From Minisyncoccota bacterium (GTDB lineage: Bacteria; Patescibacteriota; Minisyncoccia; Phycocordibacterales; UBA1006): DNA of 64,000 bases. The stretch lies in assembly GCA_036405175.1 (NCBI GenBank), contig DASWYC010000002.1, positions 251,429-315,428 on the forward strand, read 5' to 3'. Under the pieces are notes generated by a model, which worked only from the letters and a program-made list of their open reading frames with translations, did no database searches and was not told the origin of the DNA. A program made the position numbers and the translations under genes. Each line of letters starts with the position of its first letter. The stretch's first letter is position 1. Positions 5,434 to 55,403 of the stretch are shown here, in pieces.

Positions 5434-6141
5434 ATGGAAATAAAACCTAAAATGCAGTTTATAAATGCGACCAGAGAACTCATTAATCAATCTCAGCAGC
5501 CCGAAAGTGTAACAATCTCAAGTGTCCGGATCACAACGCACCCCGATGTGTTTAATCCCTCAACTTTCTTTTCGTCAAAATGGTTTGCTGATCAGCTATC
5601 CCATTTGATTCACAAAGAAAGTATCTTTATAGAGGTTGGTTCGGGAACCGGTATTGTCTCTATAAAATGTGCCCTCAGTAATCCGAAGCTGCAAATTTAT
5701 GCTACCGATATAAGCCAGAAAGCAGCTGAATTAACTCGAGCGAATGCCACAAAAAATGGTGTAAGCGGAAGAGTAGTCTCATATTCAGGCAATGTTCTTG
5801 ATGCTTTACCGGAGCGTATTAAGGCAGACAGTATATTTTGGGCTATGCCGTTTGGCTACGTAGAGCCAAATTACACCTTGGTCGGAAGAGAGGCTCAGGT
5901 GTTTGATCCTGGATATGTAGCAATAAGAAAGTTTTTTACTGATGCTGTTAAGTACCTAAAAAAGAAGGGTAGACTTATTATTGGCTTTTCTTCCGATATT
6001 GGACATTATGAGCTTCTTGAGAAATTCGCTACCGAGAATGGATATAGTCTCAAGCTTCTTAAAAGAATAACAGGGCAAGAGAAAAGTAATGTATCAATGG
6101 AACTGCATGAAGCACGTCTTATTAATAACTCACTTTACTAA
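5434..6141 (+). CDS. class I SAM-dependent methyltransferase (small-domain, HemK-like fold)
   Basis: The SAM motif I is IEVGSGTGIVSI, followed by a D in ATDIS. The MPFGY segment is at the position of the NPPY-like motif IV. Confidence 0.5.
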   Translation: MEIKPKMQFINATRELINQSQQPESVTISSVRITTHPDVFNPSTFFSSKWFADQLSHLIHKESIFIEVGSGTGIVSIKCALSNPKLQIYATDISQKAAELTRANATKNGVSGRVVSYSGNVLDALPERIKADSIFWAMPFGYVEPNYTLVGREAQVFDPGYVAIRKFFTDAVKYLKKKGRLIIGFSSDIGHYELLEKFATENGYSLKLLKRITGQEKSNVSMELHEARLINNSLY

Positions 6142-10035: not shown

Positions 10036-12387
10036 ATGATGCGATTTTTTACAACGCTTGCTCCGCTACTTATGATCGTTGGATCATTTTTTACAACAAC
10101 TGCAGCTTCTGCAGCAGTTGAACTTACCGGAAGTAACTCATTTACCGGAACAACCAGTGTTGCAATGCCAATTACCGATCTTCAGCTTACCGGAAGCAGC
10201 GGATCACCCGTGCCAGTTAAGCTTTTGGTAACCAATGGAACACTTTCATTAGGCACCACTACCAATATCACGTTTACCTCAGGAGGAAATAACGCATCCG
10301 CACTTTATTTTAGCGGAACAGTAGCAGATATAAATGCAGCCTTGGCTTCACTCACATATACACGCGGGAGCGCAGGAAGTGACACACTTGAAGTTTCATT
10401 GGTAAATCCTGGAGAAGTATTTTTCCCAGATAATGGACACCTCTATAAATTTATCTCAGGAAGCATCAACTGGAACAGCGCAAAAACAGCAGCAGAAGCC
10501 TTAACTGAATATGGCGTATCAGGATATTTAGTAACCGTAACATCGTCAGCAGAAAATGCCTTTGTTGCCGCACGTCTTGGCGCAGACGGATGGATGGGAG
10601 CAAGCGACGCTGCTCTTGAAGGCGATTGGAAGTGGGTAACCGGACCAGAAACAGGAACATCATTTTGGTCAGGAACATATACGGGAGGGCCAGTAAGTAG
10701 CCGTTATTCCAACTGGAATAATAACGAGCCAAATCAAGCAGGAGAAGAAGATTGTGCGCAATTTTACTCAAGCAGTGGAAAGTGGAATGATCTTTCTTGT
10801 GGAAATAGTATTGGCGGATATGTTGCAGAATTTGGAGCAGGAAGCACTAATCCAACCGTTGTTGCAAAAAATATTTCAATCACAACCGCCAATAATCCAA
10901 CTATAAGCAGCCTTACACCAGCGGATAACTCAACAAACATCACCACGGGAACTAATCTTACCATGGTGTTCAGCACCACTATTTCGGTGGGCACCGGAAA
11001 CATTCTTATTAAAAAGACTTCTGATGACTCAACGGTTGAAACCATTGACGTTGCAAGCGGCAAGGTAACCGGATGGGGAACTAATACTATCGTTATTAAT
11101 CCCGACACTACACTCGCAGAATCTACCGGTTACTATATTTCTATTCCTAATACTGCTTTTAAAGATGGATCAAATCGTTTTTACGCAGGAATTTCCAACA
11201 ATAGCACCTGGAATTTTACGACTGGAGATTTTACTGCACCAGTTTTGAGTGCAATTAATTCTGTGCCATCTTCAACTAGTACAACTATTACCTGGACAAC
11301 TAACGAGAATGCTTCAACACGTGTATCATATGGCGCAACATCATCATACGGTGTAAATACATCAGAAACAGATACCTCACCACGCGTGACCAGTCACACC
11401 GTTAACTTAACCAGCCTTATTCCATGTACTACGTATAACTTCCGCGTAACTTCTACGGATGGATCAGTCAATGCAAACGTAGCTAACTCAACCAACAATA
11501 CGTTTAAGACCACGGGGTGTACTGCAAATTCAGAATCAACTGCACAATCATCAACAAATGTAACAACAAGCAGTACTAGCACAACCTCATTAACCGATTC
11601 ATCAACAACACTCGTTGTTCAAACACCGTCAAACTTTACCACCACACCGTCATTGGTAATTCAAATTCAGTCACTTCCAAGCAAAAATATCATTAGTAAT
11701 ATTGGAACACCATCAGGTATTCCAAATCATATTGGAGATATTGTATTTGATGTTAAAGCAATCGTTAATGCAACAACCGTACTTGATTCATTTGATGCGC
11801 CTGTAACGATTACCTATACGTATACCGATGAAGATATTGAAGGTATTGAGGAATCTACACTGTGGCTGTATCACTACCACAATAACGCATGGGCAAAACT
11901 TGATAACTGTACGGTAGACATGGCAAATAATTTTATTCAATGTACCACCCAAGGATTTTCACTCTTCTCGCTCTTTGGGCAAACGCAACAAGTTGCTACC
12001 AGCAATGCGCTTCGCGCAAAAGGATGTAGAGATTCAAAAGCAAAAAATTATTCTGACTTTGTACTCCATGTGCAAGAAATGTGTGAATACTCGGCAAAGA
12101 CTGCAGACGCAAAAGGAAAGAAGATTAGCACTCCAGTTTTTACCAAAGATTTACAACTTGGATCAAAAGATACGGAAGTCTATGAATTACAAAAATTCCT
12201 CAATAATAATGGATTTGTAATCGCTAAGAATGGAGCAGGATCACCCGGGAAGGAGAGTCAGCAATTTGGTGCGCTTACCAAGAATGCACTTAGATCATTC
12301 CAAAAGGCACATAAGATTTCTCCAGCAACAGGCAATCTGGGACCAATTACTCGTAAATATATTACAGATTTAAGCCAGAAAAAGTAA
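10036..12387 (+). CDS. cell-surface protein with a C-type lectin domain, Ig/FN3-like repeats, a Ser/Thr-rich linker and a C-terminal peptidoglycan-binding domain
   Basis: The start was moved to MMRFFTTLAPLLMIVGSFFTTTAASAA, a signal peptide. The CTLD (about nt 10435-10833) reads WNSAKTAAEAL...ENAFV...WMGASD...EGDWKWV...YSNWNNNEPNQAGEEDCAQF...GKWNDLSCG, with EPN and WND motifs. An FN3-like segment is TITWTTNENASTRVSYG...YNFRVTSTD. The C-terminal PG_binding_1-like segment is ELQKFLNNNGF...FGALTKNALRSFQKAH. Confidence 0.7.
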   Translation: MMRFFTTLAPLLMIVGSFFTTTAASAAVELTGSNSFTGTTSVAMPITDLQLTGSSGSPVPVKLLVTNGTLSLGTTTNITFTSGGNNASALYFSGTVADINAALASLTYTRGSAGSDTLEVSLVNPGEVFFPDNGHLYKFISGSINWNSAKTAAEALTEYGVSGYLVTVTSSAENAFVAARLGADGWMGASDAALEGDWKWVTGPETGTSFWSGTYTGGPVSSRYSNWNNNEPNQAGEEDCAQFYSSSGKWNDLSCGNSIGGYVAEFGAGSTNPTVVAKNISITTANNPTISSLTPADNSTNITTGTNLTMVFSTTISVGTGNILIKKTSDDSTVETIDVASGKVTGWGTNTIVINPDTTLAESTGYYISIPNTAFKDGSNRFYAGISNNSTWNFTTGDFTAPVLSAINSVPSSTSTTITWTTNENASTRVSYGATSSYGVNTSETDTSPRVTSHTVNLTSLIPCTTYNFRVTSTDGSVNANVANSTNNTFKTTGCTANSESTAQSSTNVTTSSTSTTSLTDSSTTLVVQTPSNFTTTPSLVIQIQSLPSKNIISNIGTPSGIPNHIGDIVFDVKAIVNATTVLDSFDAPVTITYTYTDEDIEGIEESTLWLYHYHNNAWAKLDNCTVDMANNFIQCTTQGFSLFSLFGQTQQVATSNALRAKGCRDSKAKNYSDFVLHVQEMCEYSAKTADAKGKKISTPVFTKDLQLGSKDTEVYELQKFLNNNGFVIAKNGAGSPGKESQQFGALTKNALRSFQKAHKISPATGNLGPITRKYITDLSQKK

Positions 12388-27468: not shown

Positions 27469-27515
27469 AAAGCATGCAATTTTTATTTGCATGCCAGTAA
27501 ATGGTTTTTCTTGGT

Positions 27516-27905
27516 TTATTTTTTATAAGCTATTTTTTCAGGATTTAACAGTAAATATTCAAATCCTTTAGCTACGGCAGTAATCCAGAGGATAATGCCT
27601 GAACCCCATAGAGTGTATGCGGTCCAGTACGAGTTACCAGGATGCCATGAAACTATAAAAAGAATAATTCCAACGACCAATGTGATTCTCGAAAATAAGG
27701 TAAAGATAGCAAAGGTGGACATAAATAAGAAGAATAGAATACTTATTATCGGCACCATAGGTATGAATATCTTTACAATGCTGCAGAAGATAAAAAGAAA
27801 GAAAGCGCTTAAGAGAACTTTGATCCAAATACCTAACAGGATTTGAAAATATTTTCTGATCTTTCGACCAAGAAGATACGAATATACTTTTACAAGTTTT
27901 TTCAT
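27516..27905 (-). CDS. hypothetical 4-TM membrane protein
   Basis: Hydrophobic helices only. Antisense ORFs inside it were ignored. Confidence 0.35.
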   Translation of the reverse strand: MKKLVKVYSYLLGRKIRKYFQILLGIWIKVLLSAFFLFIFCSIVKIFIPMVPIISILFFLFMSTFAIFTLFSRITLVVGIILFIVSWHPGNSYWTAYTLWGSGIILWITAVAKGFEYLLLNPEKIAYKK

Positions 27906-28008
27906 TAATAAAGAATGTTTTGATTTGAATTACAGAGTATCACACAAGACTGATACGTCAAGAGGTAAGGGGAGAGTAGCGTGGGGGTTATGGTATACTT
28001 TTTAGACT

Positions 28009-28266
28009 ATGGCAAAGTCTCAAGAATCTGAAACATTACTTCACACATCTAAAGGCGGACGTGTGATGGGTAAAAAATATAATGAAGACCAAGAACGCAA
28101 CGTAGCGTTGTACACGCTTCATAAACTTGATCCGCATACCTATACCGCTTATTTGCTTGCTAAGATCTTTCAGCGTGATCGCAAGACGGTCTACGATATC
28201 ATCAAACGACTTCGTACTCTTGATGATGCTGGTGAGCTTTCGGGTAATTCATTTTTAAATGAATAA
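28009..28266 (+). pseudogene. transposase-like N-terminal HTH fragment (IS630/Tc1-type helix-turn-helix), probable IS remnant
   Basis: LLAKIFQRDRKTVYDIIKRL is HTH-like. A 40-codon +1-frame continuation follows (MLYLKKADTALAGKSHSNPLKQERAYF...), then stop-rich sequence. Confidence 0.3.
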
Positions 28267-28811
28267 AAAATGCTGTACCTCAAAAAAGCGGATACAGCAT
28301 TAGCCGGGAAGTCTCATTCTAATCCTCTCAAACAAGAGCGAGCATATTTTAAGTCCCTATTAGCCATACGCTCTGACTTCACCTGGTAGAACATAGCCTA
28401 TCATACTTTTCTTAAATGAGTAATGTATCGTCTCTATTTTTACGTAACGTACCGTGGGGGTTATAGAGGGAAATTACAAGAGAGGAAATTATACATAAAT
28501 TAAATAAGATGTAGATATGTCTATAAGTAGAGCGTTACCATAGGAGATATTAGTTATTAGATAGTATTCAAATGAAACCGACAGAAGCCAAAGCCGGCCA
28601 AACAGATTAGACAATGGTGCAACGGGCGTTATTTCATGGCTTCTGTGTCGCAAAAGATATATTGTACGACATTCAAGAATCCCTAAAGATGAAGAAGTTT
28701 TCCACATACGCTTTACCAGCTATTGACACTACCCTGTCATCACATATTCCAAAAGTTTGGTCGCAATTAATATATTTAGATAATTACATAATTAATTACT
28801 TAATAAAAAAT

Positions 28812-28843
28812 CCCTATGATCAAGCGGTCATAGGGATTCTAAA
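28812..28843 (-). terminator. intrinsic terminator of the 28881-29345 minus-strand gene
   Basis: atccctatga tcaagcgg tcatagggat has a 10-bp stem. On the minus strand it is followed by TTTTTTATT. Confidence 0.5.
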
Positions 28844-28880
28844 TTACAATTTTGTTAAAAATCTAAACCTGTCTTATTTG

Positions 28881-29345
28881 TTATCCCCTCACCTGAGGGG
28901 AATACTCTTGCTCAAACACAAGAATGTAAATTTCTTCTTTTTTTCTTTCCTGTATTTTTTTATGATTCTTCTTAGTATCTGGTCTCCAGATAGGGCGACT
29001 TTCTTGCCAATCTGCATACGTATACAGCGTAAACAAAAATACTGCCGAACTGGCTAAGGTAACCATAGAGTCAAAGAACGGCACTGTTCTGGTAGCGCTT
29101 CTATCCAGAGGGATTATTCCAATAAATCGGATTATTAAATAACTTGCAAAGATCATTGGAATCGTAAATATAATCTTCCTCATTCCCAAACTCTGCTCAG
29201 CTGCAAATTGAGCAAACTGAGTATTGTAAAAACTTTGGTAAAGAGCATGAAAGACAACACTCCCAGATAATAAGGCCATCGTGAGTCGGATTCCGTAATA
29301 AAAGATTGCAGAACCACTATTTTGAATTTTATGTAGTGATAACAT
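28881..29345 (-). CDS. hypothetical multi-pass membrane protein
   Basis: It has TM helices and a terminator immediately downstream. The overlapping +strand ORF 28614-29057 is judged spurious. Confidence 0.45.
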   Translation of the reverse strand: MLSLHKIQNSGSAIFYYGIRLTMALLSGSVVFHALYQSFYNTQFAQFAAEQSLGMRKIIFTIPMIFASYLIIRFIGIIPLDRSATRTVPFFDSMVTLASSAVFLFTLYTYADWQESRPIWRPDTKKNHKKIQERKKEEIYILVFEQEYSPQVRG

Positions 29346-29556
29346 CGCAAGGAGGTTTTAGGTTGTATTGTTAAAAAGAGTATATTTATTTTAAATAATA
29401 AGGGTATTATGTCAATCCCTACAAATTACTATAAAAAGTTATCAACATTTCTTCATCTTCCCTCTTGCAAATATAAGAAAGTTTGTAATAATGTCGTCAA
29501 TCAGTTTATTTTATACTTATCGCTGATTTTTTATTAAGTAGTATTTACACGACACC

Positions 29557-29838
29557 ATGACAACATTAGTTGATGACACATTACATCTTGGATATATCTT
29601 TGCCACAGGCGAAGGAGACGATACCACTACCGATTATCTAGAGACAGAGGAAGAATCAGATACCACATATAAACCAGTGGATCCTCGACATGTTCCTCAA
29701 GAAGATAGATTTGGACTTGGACTCGTTGGCGATTCAGAAGATGAATCAGAGGAAGAACCTGGTTCTGATGATTTATTGGAAGAATCAGAAGAAGACGAGC
29801 TTGATGGCTTTGGAGAAGAAAGTGAGGATAATTACTAA
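29557..29838 (+). CDS. extremely acidic small protein (93 aa, D/E/T-rich)
   Basis: DDTTTDYLETEEESD...DSEDESEEEPGSDDLLEESEEDELDGFGEESEDNY has a very high negative charge. Confidence 0.45.
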   Translation: MTTLVDDTLHLGYIFATGEGDDTTTDYLETEEESDTTYKPVDPRHVPQEDRFGLGLVGDSEDESEEEPGSDDLLEESEEDELDGFGEESEDNY

Positions 29839-29963
29839 GTTTCTACCCTAATACAAAAACACAGCAAATGCTGTGTTTTTGTATTAGCCCAATTACTCAT
29901 TTAAGAACCAAGACTTCATAACATAAAATTCGCCCAGTTTCCTAGACGAATTTTATGAAAAGA

Positions 29964-30098
29964 TTATTTTTTTGAAGTCTTTTTTGCAGCTTTCTTTACT
30001 GCTTTCTTAGCAACCTTCTTGGTAGCTTTTTTAACAGCTTTCTTTACTGCCTTCTTTGCAGCCTTCTTTACTGCTTTCTTAGCTTTTTTTGCAGCCAT
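29964..30098 (-). CDS. 44-aa lysine/alanine-repeat histone H1-like/Hc1-like basic protein (not in ORF track, below the 60-aa cutoff)
   Basis: Hand translation gives MAAKKAKKAVKKAAKKAVKKAVKKATKKVAKKAVKKAAKKTSKK*, running from ATG at 30098 to TAA at 29964-29966. Confidence 0.5.
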   Translation of the reverse strand: MAAKKAKKAVKKAAKKAVKKAVKKATKKVAKKAVKKAAKKTSKK

Positions 30099-30463
30099 AC
30101 GTTTACTTTAGTGTGAAAATAACTTGATTATATATTGCTATATAAAAGTTACGATTAGCTTAGTCGACCGCATGAAAGTATAAATGGTCGATAAAGGCAT
30201 TTATTCTTCATGTGAATATATTGTATGAATAATTTTTTATACTAACAAGATAAAAGGCTGTGTATAACTCAATTTGAAATAAAAATATGCAAATGATTTG
30301 CAAAAGCGCTTTTGCTACTTTTTAGCACTTCTCTTCCCTATTATAAACTTTTTTGTAAAACTCAACTTTCTTTTTACGTCTTTTAAACTTTGACTTCTTC
30401 TTATATTTAAGCTATAAAAGACTAAGTTTAAACTTAATATGTAACAAAAAACCAATTATCATA

Positions 30464-30838
30464 ATGCAGGTACCTGATATGAAAGTCATTCTACTGGGAG
30501 GTATTCCTCAGTATGTAGAACAAGTATCTAAGATTTTTAAAGAGAATAGTCGGAAGATCTTAGATATCATCCTGGAAGTAACCTTTAGCGATATTGTTGA
30601 AGAAGAACCTATTCCGGGCGGTATACGGTGGACACTTTGTTCCCATATAAATCCCAGTCGAGACAGAAGAGTCATGATCTCGTTCTTCTATACAGGAGAA
30701 ATATCTATGGTGCCAACTTCTTCTTTAGAGACAACGGATGAATCCTCTGAAACAACGCTTCGTTACAAGACCAGTTTCGTACGCGAAATGGTAAAGTTCA
30801 TGGCGGACGTTATGTCTATTCTCTATCCTTCTGGATAA
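30464..30838 (+). CDS. hypothetical protein upstream of rpmA
   Basis: No motif. MKVILLGGIPQYVEQ weakly resembles an L21 N-terminus, but this is not sustained. Confidence 0.35.
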   Translation: MQVPDMKVILLGGIPQYVEQVSKIFKENSRKILDIILEVTFSDIVEEEPIPGGIRWTLCSHINPSRDRRVMISFFYTGEISMVPTSSLETTDESSETTLRYKTSFVREMVKFMADVMSILYPSG

Positions 30839-31008
30839 GTCCTAATACTTACGGAAGCCTCTTTACGAGGCTTTTTCTTATAAAAGATATATTTTATAGC
30901 ACATTTCTCCGCCATACAGCCGGTTCCTTGTACTAGGCGGTGCTTATTTGCAAAATACCCCATATCATGGTATTATTTGCCCACAGTAACGTATTTATAT
31001 AAATCACT

Positions 31009-31281
31009 ATGGCACATAGAAAAGCGGGGGGAACAGCGAGAAGCTTTAGAGATTCTAATCCTCAGTACCTCGGAACCAAAAAATACGGCGGAGAAAAAGT
31101 ACAACCTGGAAATATTATTATTCGCCAGCGCGGTACTAAGATCCTCGCAGGAGCCAATACCGATCTTGGATCTGACCACACTATCTACGCAACCAAAGAA
31201 GGATACGTGGTATACGGAACTAAGCGTGTACAACACTTCGACGGAACCGTAAAAATCAAGAAGATTGTTTCCGTTCAATAA
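31009..31281 (+). CDS. rpmA: 50S ribosomal protein L27
   Basis: [31 protein letters not shown]...IIIRQRGTK is a canonical L27. Confidence 0.9.
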
Positions 31282-31292
31282 TCTTCAATCAT

Positions 31293-31316
31293 AAAAGCCA
31301 CAGAAATGTGGCTTTT
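31293..31316. terminator. bidirectional terminator between rpmA and rplI
   Basis: aaaagccaca gaaa tgtggctttt forms a 10-bp stem. Confidence 0.6.
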
Positions 31317-55136: not shown

Positions 55137-55403
55137 TTACATTTCGTCTTTTTCAATCTCCTCACCTTCTATTTCCTCCTTTTCATCATCATGAATCAGG
55201 TCATCTTCGTTGGTGTCATTTTCTTCATCCCCCATATCATCGGGAGAAAATTCATCCCCTTCAGCTCCAATTTCTTCAGTAAAATCTTCTTCGAGCGGAT
55301 CTACTTCCTCATCTCCACGGAGCTTCTTATTGGTTTCTACTCCAGCATCTGAATTAATAAGTTCGTCAGCTGAAATGTTGTTGGTATCATCGTTCATACG
55401 CAA
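55137..55403 (-). CDS. highly acidic small protein (88 aa)
   Basis: DEEVDPLEEDFTEEIGAEGDEFSPDDMGDEENDTNEDDLIHDDEKEEIEGEEIEKDEM. Confidence 0.4.
   Translation of the reverse strand: MRMNDDTNNISADELINSDAGVETNKKLRGDEEVDPLEEDFTEEIGAEGDEFSPDDMGDEENDTNEDDLIHDDEKEEIEGEEIEKDEM

What the first reader, a model, noticed from the sequence alone, without database searches (positions are those of the whole stretch)
29557..30098. Convergent pair: hyper-acidic 93-aa protein and a 44-aa KKA-repeat histone-H1-like protein missed by the ORF track
The minus-strand 135-nt ORF is MAAKKAKKAVKKAAKKAVKKAVKKATKKVAKKAVKKAAKKTSKK. It is the only gene in the window below the 60-aa track cutoff and was found by hand translation. 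This is a pure AKK/VKK repeat, like eukaryotic H1 tails and chlamydial Hc1 or AlgP-type bacterial nucleoid proteins. Its partner 130 nt away on the other strand is a D/E/T-rich polyanion, about 45% acidic. A DNA-compacting polycation next to a DNA-mimic-like polyanion suggests a nucleoid-condensation and chaperone pair. Alternatively the acidic protein is an Ocr/ArdA-like anti-restriction decoy.
Basis: seen in the sequence. Interest (0 to 1): 0.6.

Follow-up and report, generated by a model that had tools for sequence, protein, structure and literature searches.

The report
Conserved polycation–polyanion small-gene pair
Two tiny neighbouring genes in an uncultured ultra-small (CPR, Paceibacterota) bacterium are real and are kept side by side in related lineages; one encodes a 44-residue histone-H1-tail-like string of lysines and the other a disordered, strongly acidic protein, but what they do, and whether they work together, is only inferred.

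Summary
A 44-aa (KKxx)n ORF lies at 29964-30098(-) and a 93-aa acidic ORF at 29557-29838(+), convergent and 125 nt apart. D+E is 37%, not about 45%.

Both are real genes. HMMER and tblastn found no homologues, because low complexity defeats them. Synteny around ribosomal protein L9 recovered orthologues in three further Paceibacterota lineages (L9 61-92% identical).
- The KKA ORF (45-52 aa) keeps its start, its stop and all 22 Lys. Changes are mostly at third codon positions, and indels are in frame.
- The acidic ORF (91-100 aa, net -31 to -36) is convergent next to it in both lineages where the contig extends far enough. It evolves fast but stays in frame, and keeps N-terminal MTTL and a C-terminal DGF.
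- Each gene has a conserved sigma-70-type promoter, a conserved leader and its own 14-18-bp terminator hairpin.
- AF2 gives one helix for KKA and disorder for the acidic protein.

Best reading: a minimal, tail-only H1-like polycation that binds nucleic acid by charge. The acidic protein may be its counter-ion, chaperone or antagonist, as prothymosin-alpha is for H1. This partnership is inferred, not shown.

Membership of Hc1, AlgP, linker-histone, Ocr or ArdA families is not met. I rate it moderately interesting.

The parts
29964..30098 (-). KKA gene: a 44-aa polycation, M-A-A-(K-K-x-x)n-KKTSKK, net +22.
   Evidence: -: translation and charge.
- orthologues of 45, 46 and 52 aa. All 22 Lys are invariant. 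Differences by codon position are 1/2/12 (window vs L010) and 5/6/21 (vs L015). Indels are in multiples of 3.
- AF2 predicts a single helix over residues 2-43, pLDDT 88.
- Lys are spread evenly around the helix.
29557..29838 (+). Acidic gene: a 93-aa polyanion, net -31, predicted disordered.
   Evidence: -: translation and charge.
- orthologues of 100 and 91 aa with invariant MTTL at the N-terminus and DGF near the C-terminus.
- indels of 6, 12, 6 and 3 nt; pN 0.34 against pS 0.70.
- AF2 pLDDT 60, pTM 0.13, essentially no secondary structure.
29922..29957 (-). Terminator hairpin of the KKA gene (16-bp stem).
   Evidence: -: -21.7 kcal/mol, z = -6.2.
- The same position in L015 has a different sequence but a 15-bp stem (z = -6.4). 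L010 has a 16-bp stem (z = -6.6).
29848..29887 (+). Terminator hairpin of the acidic gene (18-bp stem).
   Evidence: -: -25.3 kcal/mol, z = -9.0.
- L010 and L015 have hairpins of different sequence at the same place (z = -7.7 and -5.4).
30220..30248 (-). Conserved sigma-70-type promoter of the KKA transcript: TTGTTA, 17 nt, TACAAT.
   Evidence: -: scan hit.
- both hexamers are kept in all four lineages (TTGTTA / TTGTGA / TTGTAT, and TACAAT) while the spacer varies.
30099..30213 (-). Conserved ~114-nt leader of the KKA gene, with an invariant core CATGAAG.ATAAATGC.T.TATCGACCATTTAT..TTTCATGCGGTCGAC.
   Evidence: -: the core is 96%, 93% and 79% identical to L010, L014 and L015, although synonymous sites are saturated (pS 0.64-0.80).
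- a predicted long-range helix joins AUGCCUUUAU to AAGUAAACGUAU, which includes the A and U of the start codon. It shows one compensatory U-A to G-C change.
- no Rfam family.
- single-sequence fold z = -1.2, not significant.
30155..30211 (-). Possible leaderless 18-codon upstream ORF (MKNKCLYRPFILSCGRLS). It starts 8 nt after the -10 box.
   Evidence: -: translation.
- alignment read in this frame: the first 12 codons are kept, with synonymous changes AAG>AAA, CTT>TTG, ATA>ATT/ATC and CTT>TTA. L015 shifts frame after codon 12.
- a -10 box 6-9 nt before the ATG is the common (leaderless-type) arrangement in this genome.
- Tentative.
29465..29492 (+). Conserved promoter of the acidic gene: TTGCAA, 16 nt, TG-extended AATAAT.
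   Evidence: -: scan hit.
- invariant in all three lineages.
- the 124 nt upstream are 97% identical between the window and L010, against 60% for the CDS.
29499..29528 (+). Conserved inverted repeat AATCAG...CTGATT in the ~57-nt leader of the acidic gene.
   Evidence: both arms are invariant in three lineages while the loop varies. Read directly from the sequence.

Best explanation
Two independently transcribed, convergent small genes are conserved in a narrow clade of Candidatus Paceibacterota.

(1) The 44-52-aa product is a minimal, tail-only polycation resembling the histone H1 C-terminal domain. It consists of strictly periodic Lys-Lys-x-x, where x is A, V, T or I with a rare S or P, and carries a net charge of +22 to +24. 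It has no folded domain. It most likely binds a polyanion, above all DNA, non-specifically through charge neutralisation, folding into a helix on binding and compacting or coating the nucleic acid. Its dose appears to be tightly controlled: it has a conserved promoter and a conserved ~114-nt leader. That leader may be a leaderless 18-codon upstream ORF whose RNA can pair with the KKA start codon.

(2) The 91-100-aa neighbour is an intrinsically disordered polyanion with a net charge of -31 to -36. Its sequence drifts quickly, but its charge, its N-terminal MTTL and its C-terminal (L/M)DGF are kept. The most likely link is that it acts as a counter-ion, chaperone or antagonist that buffers or strips the polycation. 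Prothymosin-alpha does this for H1, and acidic DNA mimics do it for HU.

Shown: both are real, conserved genes; they are adjacent; they carry these charges; they have their own expression signals; one is predicted helical and the other disordered.
Inferred: DNA binding, and any interaction between the two proteins.
For: KKA is a real gene:
- In-frame conservation in four lineages, with third-position and Lys-synonymous changes.
- Called by gene callers.
- Conserved promoter and leader.
- A structure-conserved, sequence-divergent terminator.

The acidic ORF is a real gene:
- In-frame indels and pN < pS.
- Conserved terminal motifs.
- Conserved promoter and terminator.

The pairing:
- A convergent neighbour in the window, L010 and L015/L017.
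- Both genes are absent from the equivalent locus in more distant relatives.

Physical character:
- Charges.
- AF2 helix against disorder.
- Lys are not confined to one face of the helix.

Precedents in the literature:
- K/A-rich tails bind DNA: AlgP (PMC9239181) and HBHA (PMC10665949).
- Tail-only H1-like proteins occur in bacteria, kinetoplastids and Toxoplasma (PMC9769792).
- H1 and prothymosin-alpha form a high-affinity disordered complex (PMC7661507).
- Acidic mimics bind HU (PMC3643605, PMC5722371).
- Chlamydial Hc1 translation is tightly controlled (PMC3469542).
Against: - There is no experimental or expression data.
- Adjacency could be plain synteny. L9, L27 and a downstream membrane-protein gene are also conserved around the pair.
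- Only three or four lineages are available, all from one clade.
- The genes are convergent and separately terminated, not co-transcribed.
- The charges do not co-vary (+22/-31, +22/-36, +24/-31).
- Another hyper-acidic ORF sits unpaired at 55137-55403.
- Parcubacteria also use Ala/Lys-rich tails on ribosomal protein uS19 (PMC9297842), so the target could be rRNA.
- AF2 was run on single sequences.
Confidence: 0.45

Rival explanations
1. Both genes are real, but they are functionally unrelated neighbours. The KKA protein is a nucleic-acid-binding polycation. The acidic protein does something else, for example cation buffering, mimicry aimed at another DNA-binding protein, or an interaction through its C-terminal DGF tip.
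For: - The two are separate transcription units with their own promoters and terminators.
- Surrounding synteny is conserved as well.
- Their rates of evolution are very different: KKA is 95% identical between the window and L010, the acidic protein 46%.
- A second, unpaired hyper-acidic ORF lies in the window.
Against: - The convergent adjacency is kept in every lineage where it can be checked, even where other neighbours change. The 124-aa gene is absent in L015 and inverted in L014.
- The charges are complementary and of the same order.
Confidence: 0.33
2. The KKA protein is a ribosome- or rRNA-associated polycation, either a free-standing version of the Ala/Lys-rich extensions found on Parcubacteria ribosomal proteins or an RNA chaperone. 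On this reading it is not a nucleoid protein.
For: - Parcubacteria uS19 carries a lineage-specific Ala/Lys-rich tail of about 25 aa (PMC9297842).
- The gene lies about 1 kb from rpmA (L27) and rplI (L9) in all lineages.
- The Toxoplasma H1-like protein also associates with ribosomal proteins (PMC9769792).
Against: - It is not in an operon with the ribosomal genes. The strand, promoter and terminator are its own.
- A pure repeat with variable copy number (44-52 aa) is unlike known small ribosomal proteins.
- No family hit.
Confidence: 0.12
3. The pair is a polycationic toxin or effector with an antidote. The KKA peptide is harmful, through membrane or nucleic-acid damage, or is aimed at the host cell of this episymbiont. 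The acidic protein neutralises it inside the producer.
For: - Local 18-residue windows are strongly amphipathic (muH 0.66).
- Expression signals suggest tight control.
- The neighbour carries the opposite charge.
Against: - There is no signal peptide and no export genes nearby.
- There are no large hydrophobic residues, and over the whole helix Lys surround it (muH 0.09).
- The two genes are not co-transcribed as toxin-antitoxin pairs usually are.
- The context is chromosomal housekeeping genes.
Confidence: 0.05
4. The acidic protein is an Ocr/ArdA-type anti-restriction DNA mimic.
For: Only its high negative charge and small size.
Against: - No Pfam or PHROGs match.
- AF2 predicts disorder, whereas Ocr and ArdA are folded charge arrays.
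- It is inherited vertically in a housekeeping locus between a DNA-alkylation-repair gene and the L27/L9 genes. It is not on a phage or plasmid.
Confidence: 0.02
5. The KKA ORF is spurious. On this reading the repeat is non-coding, or the real product is the hydrophobic FFxA peptide read from the opposite strand (30019-30111, +).
For: The antisense frame stays open in all lineages, and a 30-aa TTG-initiated ORF exists.
Against: - An open antisense frame is an automatic consequence of the KKxx codons.
- It has no ATG start in any lineage. The TTG of the window's 30-aa antisense ORF also lies in the same antisense context in L010; it was not checked in L014 or L015.
- Most substitutions fall on KKA third positions, which are antisense second positions.
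- The promoter, the leader and the terminator are oriented for the KKA strand.
Confidence: 0.03

Closest known systems
Tail-only 'H1-like' lysine/alanine-rich proteins (bacterial H1-like proteins, kinetoplastid H1, Toxoplasma TgH1-like; PMC9769792)
   Same: They are small and extremely basic, rich in Lys and Ala, of low complexity, and lack any globular domain. DNA or chromatin binding by charge is presumed.
   Different: - At 44-52 aa this is at the very small end.
- The repeat is a strict KKxx tetrad with almost no Pro and no S/TPKK motifs.
- This is a compositional class, not a demonstrable homologous family, and HMMER finds nothing.
Chlamydial Hc1/Hc2 (HctA/HctB)
   Same: These are bacterial Lys/Ala-rich DNA condensers. 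Their synthesis is tightly controlled after transcription: the sRNA IhtA represses hctA (PMC3469542, PMC4355289). Here a conserved leader may mask the start codon.
   Different: - No match to Pfam Hc1.
- Hc1 has a conserved non-repeat N-terminal part, and Hc2 uses pentamer repeats (PMC2848022).
- No acidic protein partner is known for either.
Pseudomonas AlgP / PhaF C-terminal KPAA repeat domain (PMC9239181)
   Same: It is a tetrapeptide-periodic Lys/Ala repeat that binds DNA. In AlgP it also binds polyphosphate granules. The repeat number varies.
   Different: - It has one Lys and one Pro per tetrad (KPAA), against two Lys and no Pro here.
- It is attached to a 124-aa helical N-terminal domain, and the protein is 352 aa long.
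Histone H1 with prothymosin-alpha (PMC7661507, PMC10576128)
   Same: A polycationic disordered tail pairs with a disordered polyanion of about 100 aa of comparable opposite charge. The polyanion chaperones and displaces H1 from DNA.
   Different: - That pair is eukaryotic, with no sequence relationship to this one.
- The acidic protein here has conserved aromatic and hydrophobic positions (MTTL, Y, F, DGF).
- The interaction here is untested.
Acidic DNA-mimic proteins that bind the nucleoid protein HU (Neisseria DMP12 and DMP19, phage Gp46; PMC3643605, PMC5722371, PMC8892312)
   Same: Small acidic bacterial proteins that modulate a nucleoid-associated protein by occupying its DNA-binding surface.
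   Different: - Those are folded proteins with a DNA-like array of charges, whereas this one is predicted disordered.
- Their target is HU, not a Lys-repeat peptide.
Ala/Lys-rich C-terminal extension of ribosomal protein uS19 in Parcubacteria (PMC9297842)
   Same: It occurs in the same phylum-level group, has the same composition, and is about 25 aa long.
   Different: It is fused to a ribosomal protein, whereas here the repeat is a free-standing gene with its own regulation.

Membership tests
Chlamydial Hc1 (Pfam PF07432) | Significant match to the Hc1 profile | tested here: not met
   no Pfam family at E <= 0.1; no relevant NCBIfam family. The HMMER bias filter penalises such sequences, so this negative is weak.
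Chlamydial Hc1 (Pfam PF07432) | A non-repetitive N-terminal region ahead of the Lys/Ala-rich tail | tested here: not met
   the repeat starts at residue 4 (MAA-KK...). There is no non-repeat domain in any of the four orthologues.
Eukaryotic linker histone H1/H5 (PF00538) | Winged-helix globular domain of about 80 aa | tested here: not met
   44 aa in total, with no Pfam hit. AF2 gives a single helix.
Eukaryotic linker histone H1/H5 (PF00538) | C-terminal-domain-type composition (rich in K, A and P, with S/TPKK motifs) | tested here: inconclusive
   the window's protein is 50% K and 30% A (read from the translation). There is no Pro in the window or L010, and 1-2 in L014 and L015. There is no SPKK motif. 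The resemblance is in composition only.
AlgP/PhaF KPAA-repeat proteins | KPAA tetrapeptide repeats attached to an alpha-helical N-terminal domain (PMC9239181) | tested here: not met
   the repeat unit is KK(A/V/T)(A/V), with no Pro in the unit and no N-terminal domain.
Tail-only H1-like proteins (compositional class) | Small, more than 40% Lys plus Ala/Pro, no globular domain | tested here: met
   This is a class defined by composition, so membership says nothing about descent.
Tail-only H1-like proteins (compositional class) | Binds and compacts DNA | not testable with these tools
   Needs EMSA, compaction assays, or nucleoid condensation on heterologous expression.
Ocr (PF08684) / ArdA (PF07275) anti-restriction DNA mimics | Profile match, or a folded structure with a DNA-like array of charges | tested here: not met
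   no Pfam or PHROGs hits. AF2 pLDDT 60, pTM 0.13, essentially no secondary structure (single-sequence model, so a caveat applies).
Ocr (PF08684) / ArdA (PF07275) anti-restriction DNA mimics | Carried by a phage, plasmid or conjugative element and expressed early on entry | tested here: not met
   the gene is flanked by housekeeping genes (DNA-alkylation repair, L27, L9, S41 peptidase) and is syntenic in diverged lineages.
Prothymosin-alpha-type H1 chaperone | Highly acidic, fully disordered protein of about 100 aa | tested here: met
   net -31 to -36, predicted disordered. There is no sequence relationship and no Pfam hit.
Prothymosin-alpha-type H1 chaperone | High-affinity binding to the polycation and competition with DNA | not testable with these tools
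   Needs ITC, smFRET or competition EMSA with the two products.
Folded DNA mimics that bind HU (DMP12/DMP19) | Folded monomer or dimer with dsDNA-like surface charge | tested here: not met
   predicted disordered.

The most novel reading that the evidence does not exclude
A bacterial counterpart of the H1 / prothymosin-alpha system. The 44-aa pure polycation and the ~95-aa disordered polyanion would form a charge-driven, disordered complex or coacervate. That complex would set the level of free polycation, and through it nucleoid (or ribosome) compaction, in an ultra-small CPR cell. Synthesis of the polycation would be gated by a leaderless upstream mini-ORF whose translation unmasks the KKA start codon.
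Probability: 0.18. Interest if true: 0.75.

Novelty: new variant of a known kind. Interest (0 to 1): 0.42.

Why it matters
- If the two products interact, this would be the simplest natural polycation/polyanion regulatory pair known in a bacterium. It would also be a prokaryotic parallel to linker-histone chaperoning, in a lineage whose chromatin biology is essentially unknown.
- Both products are small enough to synthesise, so the idea can be tested directly.
- There is a practical lesson too. Both genes looked like orphans in searches of billions of proteins only because low-complexity filters and length cut-offs hid their orthologues. Synteny recovered them at once.

Tried and rejected
Searches that led nowhere:
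- Homology searches with either protein found only the protein itself or nothing (phmmer against 5.8 and 1.84 billion proteins).
- Pfam, NCBIfam, PHROGs and PDB gave nothing.
- tblastn confirmation of acidic-protein loci in genome contigs found nothing. That collection does contain L017, which carries a sequence identical to row 3 of the query alignment, so these negatives are artefacts of low complexity.
- The KKA orthologues are not even in the clustered protein collection.
- BLASTP of the window's acidic protein against L015's gives E = 0.45. Orthology therefore rests on synteny, the terminal motifs and the conserved flanking DNA.

Ideas rejected:
- Antisense hydrophobic peptide.
- Fragment of a larger gene.
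- A coding reading of the 42-aa ORF at 29409-29537. L015 reads the same conserved nucleotides in another frame, so the region is a promoter and leader.
- The second acidic ORF at 55137-55403 as a paralogue (hhalign probability 0.7%).
- A known RNA family in the leaders or between the genes.
- The leader motif as a repeated operator: it occurs once in the window.
- A dif-site reading of the conserved block upstream of KKA. It matches 15 of 20 positions of the B. subtilis dif sequence as I recalled it from memory. This is weak, and the promoter explains the block better.

Limits of the comparison:
- More distant L9-anchored loci (L018-L029) lack the pair.
Full report
**1. The observation**

The window is AT-rich (35-42% GC). 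It belongs to a Candidatus Paceibacterota (CPR) metagenome-assembled genome: NCBI names the acidic protein 'MAG TPA: hypothetical protein VGE63_01660'.

- The plus-strand ORF 29557-29838 is the 93-aa acidic protein.
- The two converge across a 125-nt gap.
- Charges are +22 (pI 11.3) and -31 (pI 4.05).
- D+E is 34/93, or 37%, not about 45%.
- The gene callers behind the public assemblies call both ORFs, so the small gene was missed only because of a length threshold.
- TRF sees a period-12 array of 8.6 copies at only 72% match. The DNA units differ mainly at synonymous sites, which points to selection on the protein rather than recent slippage.

**2. Homology searches fail, for a technical reason**

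- Pfam, NCBIfam, PHROGs and PDB give nothing.
- phmmer against 5.8 billion and 1.84 billion proteins returns only the acidic protein itself, and nothing for KKA.
- These negatives are not informative. An identical copy of one acidic orthologue sits in genome contigs (L017), yet the tblastn confirmation rejected all candidates.
- None of the KKA orthologues are in the clustered protein collection.
- BLASTP between two syntenic acidic orthologues gives E = 0.45.

**3. Synteny recovers orthologues**

Homologues of the neighbouring ribosomal protein L9 at 92%, 71% and 61-65% identity led to contigs L010, L014 and L015. L017 is the same organism as L015.

| Locus | KKA ORF | Acidic ORF |
|---|---|---|
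| window | 44 aa, 29964-30098(-) | 93 aa, 29557-29838(+) |
| L010 | 45 aa, 11668-11805(+) | 100 aa, 11929-12231(-) |
| L014 | 46 aa, 5979-6119(+) | not testable: the contig ends 5 nt after the KKA stop |
| L015 | 52 aa, 11225-11383(+) | 91 aa, 11489-11764(-) |

- In every locus a small KKxx ORF lies on the far side of the L27 gene.
- In L010 and L015 an acidic ORF converges on it.
- So the pair is present in all three lineages where it can be tested.
- More distant L9-anchored loci have neither gene nearby. These are Peribacteria, JGI metagenome contigs, and relatives at 43% and 35% L9 identity.

**4. Both are coding**

KKA:
- All 22 Lys positions of the window's protein, the start (MA.AKK) and the end (KK[TV]SKK, then stop) are invariant.
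- Differences by codon position are 1/2/12 (window vs L010) and 5/6/21 (vs L015).
- Lys codons swap between AAA and AAG freely.
- The x positions wander among A, V, T and I, with a rare P or S.
- All indels are whole codons. L015 has six more residues than the majority consensus, plus one extra after the start.
- The upstream in-frame stop shows the ATG is the true start.
- The antisense FFxA frame is always open, but that follows automatically from the codons. It has no ATG start, and it would take most of the substitutions at its second codon positions.

Acidic gene:
- Indels between the window and L010 are 6, 12, 6 and 3 nt.
- pN is 0.34 against pS 0.70. For L9 the values are 0.05 and 0.64.
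- The gene is therefore coding, under weak constraint on sequence but strong constraint on composition.
- Invariant features are MTTL at the N-terminus, a few aromatic residues, and (L/M)DGF about 10 residues from the end.

**5. Expression signals**

Synonymous sites between these lineages are saturated (pS 0.64-0.80). Even so, the non-coding flanks are highly conserved.

KKA:
- Promoter: -35 TTGTTA (30248-30243), 17 nt, -10 TACAAT (30225-30220). Both hexamers are kept in all four lineages while the spacer varies.
- The leader core is 96%, 93% and 79% identical to L010, L014 and L015. The 22 nt before the ATG are 100%, 95% and 83% identical.

Acidic gene:
- Promoter: TTGCAA, 16 nt, TG-extended AATAAT (29465-29492).
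- The 124 nt upstream are 97% identical between the window and L010, against 60% for the CDS.
- L015 reads the conserved nucleotides in a different frame from the window's 42-aa ORF (29409-29537). That stretch is therefore regulatory, not coding.

Terminators:
- Each gene ends in its own perfect hairpin of 14-18 bp, with z from -5.4 to -9.0.
- The sequence differs between lineages but the stem is kept.
- These are two separate, convergent transcription units.

**6. The KKA leader**

- RNAalifold predicts pairing between AUGCCUUUAU (30198-30189) and AAGUAAACGUAU, which includes the A and U of the KKA start codon. L015 shows one compensatory U-A to G-C change.
- The single-sequence fold is not significant (z = -1.2), and there is no Rfam family.
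- Read as protein, the core is an 18-codon ORF, MKNKCLYRPFILSCGRLS (30211-30155). Its ATG lies 8 nt after the -10 box.
- That spacing is this genome's usual leaderless arrangement. Of 55 genes, 29 have a TAnnnT hexamer 5-10 nt before the start, and only 2 have a Shine-Dalgarno-like motif.
- The first 12 codons are conserved, with synonymous changes AAG>AAA, CTT>TTG, ATA>ATT/ATC and CTT>TTA. L015 shifts frame afterwards.
- A model consistent with both observations is that translation of the mini-ORF melts the helix that masks the KKA start codon.
- With only four sequences this is tentative.

**7. Physical character**

- AF2 on single sequences predicts one continuous helix for KKA (pLDDT 88).
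- It predicts essentially no structure for the acidic protein (pLDDT 60, pTM 0.13).
- On an ideal helix the Lys pairs spiral evenly around the axis, with 3-5 per 60-degree sector and a whole-helix muH of 0.09.
- This fits wrapping of, or insertion along, a polyanion. It does not fit a membrane-active amphipathic face, although local 18-residue windows are amphipathic.

**8. Interpretation**

What it works like: the Lys/Ala-rich tails that bind DNA by charge. Examples are:
- the H1 C-terminal domain;
- tail-only H1-like proteins of bacteria, kinetoplastids and Toxoplasma (PMC9769792);
- AlgP and PhaF, which also bind polyphosphate (PMC9239181);
- mycobacterial HBHA (PMC10665949);
- chlamydial Hc1 and Hc2, whose synthesis is tightly controlled at translation (PMC3469542, PMC4355289).

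Membership: it fails the defining features of Hc1, AlgP and linker histones (see the membership table). It fits only the compositional class of tail-only H1-like proteins.

The acidic neighbour most resembles prothymosin-alpha as an H1 chaperone in function (PMC7661507, PMC10576128). Acidic DNA mimics that bind HU are a bacterial precedent (PMC3643605, PMC5722371, PMC8892312).

The partnership is inferred only from conserved convergent adjacency and complementary charge. General synteny, separate transcription units and the lack of charge co-variation all weaken the inference.

A ribosomal or rRNA role is a live rival, because Parcubacteria attach Ala/Lys-rich tails to uS19 (PMC9297842) and the gene sits beside the L27 and L9 genes. 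The Ocr/ArdA idea has no support.

**9. Verdict**

- That both are real, conserved genes: about 0.9.
- That KKA is a charge-driven binder of nucleic acid or another polyanion: about 0.6.
- That the acidic protein is its functional partner: about 0.3.

I class it as a new variant of a known kind: a minimal H1-like polycation with a conserved polyanion neighbour and an unusual conserved leader. Interest is moderate.

Noticed in passing
window 30099-30250 (-): The non-coding region upstream of the KKA gene is better conserved than the coding repeat. The core is 79-96% identical although synonymous sites are saturated. It contains a conserved promoter, an invariant CGACC/GGTCG hairpin, and a predicted long-range helix onto the start codon with one compensatory change. 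No Rfam family matches.
   Followed up: partly
window 30155-30211 (-): Possible leaderless 18-codon upstream ORF, MKNKCLYRPFILSCGRLS, starting 8 nt after the -10 box. The first 12 codons are conserved with several synonymous changes in four lineages, and L015 shifts frame after codon 12. Translation of this ORF could be coupled to KKA translation.
   Followed up: partly
whole window (55 gene starts): The genome has almost no Shine-Dalgarno motifs (2 of 55 genes). It has a -10-like TAnnnT, often GGTATACT or TGATAnAAT, ending 5-10 nt before the start codon in 29 of 55 genes. This suggests widespread leaderless mRNAs.
   Followed up: partly
window about 27500-31300: Gene orientation switches here from nearly all plus-strand on the left to nearly all minus-strand on the right, and cumulative GC skew peaks here. 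This is probably the replication terminus. The region is unusually rich in small lineage-specific genes and long intergenic spacers. No convincing dif site was found.
   Followed up: partly
window 55137-55403 (-): A second hyper-acidic ORF: 88 aa, 43% D+E, no family hit. It is not related to the acidic protein of the pair (hhalign probability 0.7%), and no Lys-rich ORF (K+R above 33%) turned up anywhere else in the window.
   Followed up: partly
window 29433-29556 (+); L010 12232-12355 (-): The 124 nt upstream of the acidic gene are 97% identical between the window and L010, while the CDS is only 60% identical. The regulatory DNA is under far stronger constraint than the protein sequence.
   Followed up: yes
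window 29409-29537 (+); L015 11791-11916 (-): The small ORFs over the acidic gene's promoter (42 aa here, and a called 41-aa gene in L015) read the same conserved nucleotides in different frames. They are probably not genes.
   Followed up: yes
window 28009-28266 (+); L010 13333-13590 (-): An 85-aa protein with a weak helix-turn-helix match. By eye it differs at about 8 of 85 residues between lineages whose L9 is 92% identical. It has a GGTATACT box 9 nt before its ATG. It is a conserved small putative regulator of unknown target close to the pair.
   Followed up: no
searches: Both genes look like orphans in searches of billions of proteins only because of low-complexity and bias filters, and because very small proteins are missing from the clustered collection. 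Synteny recovers their orthologues straight away.
   Followed up: yes
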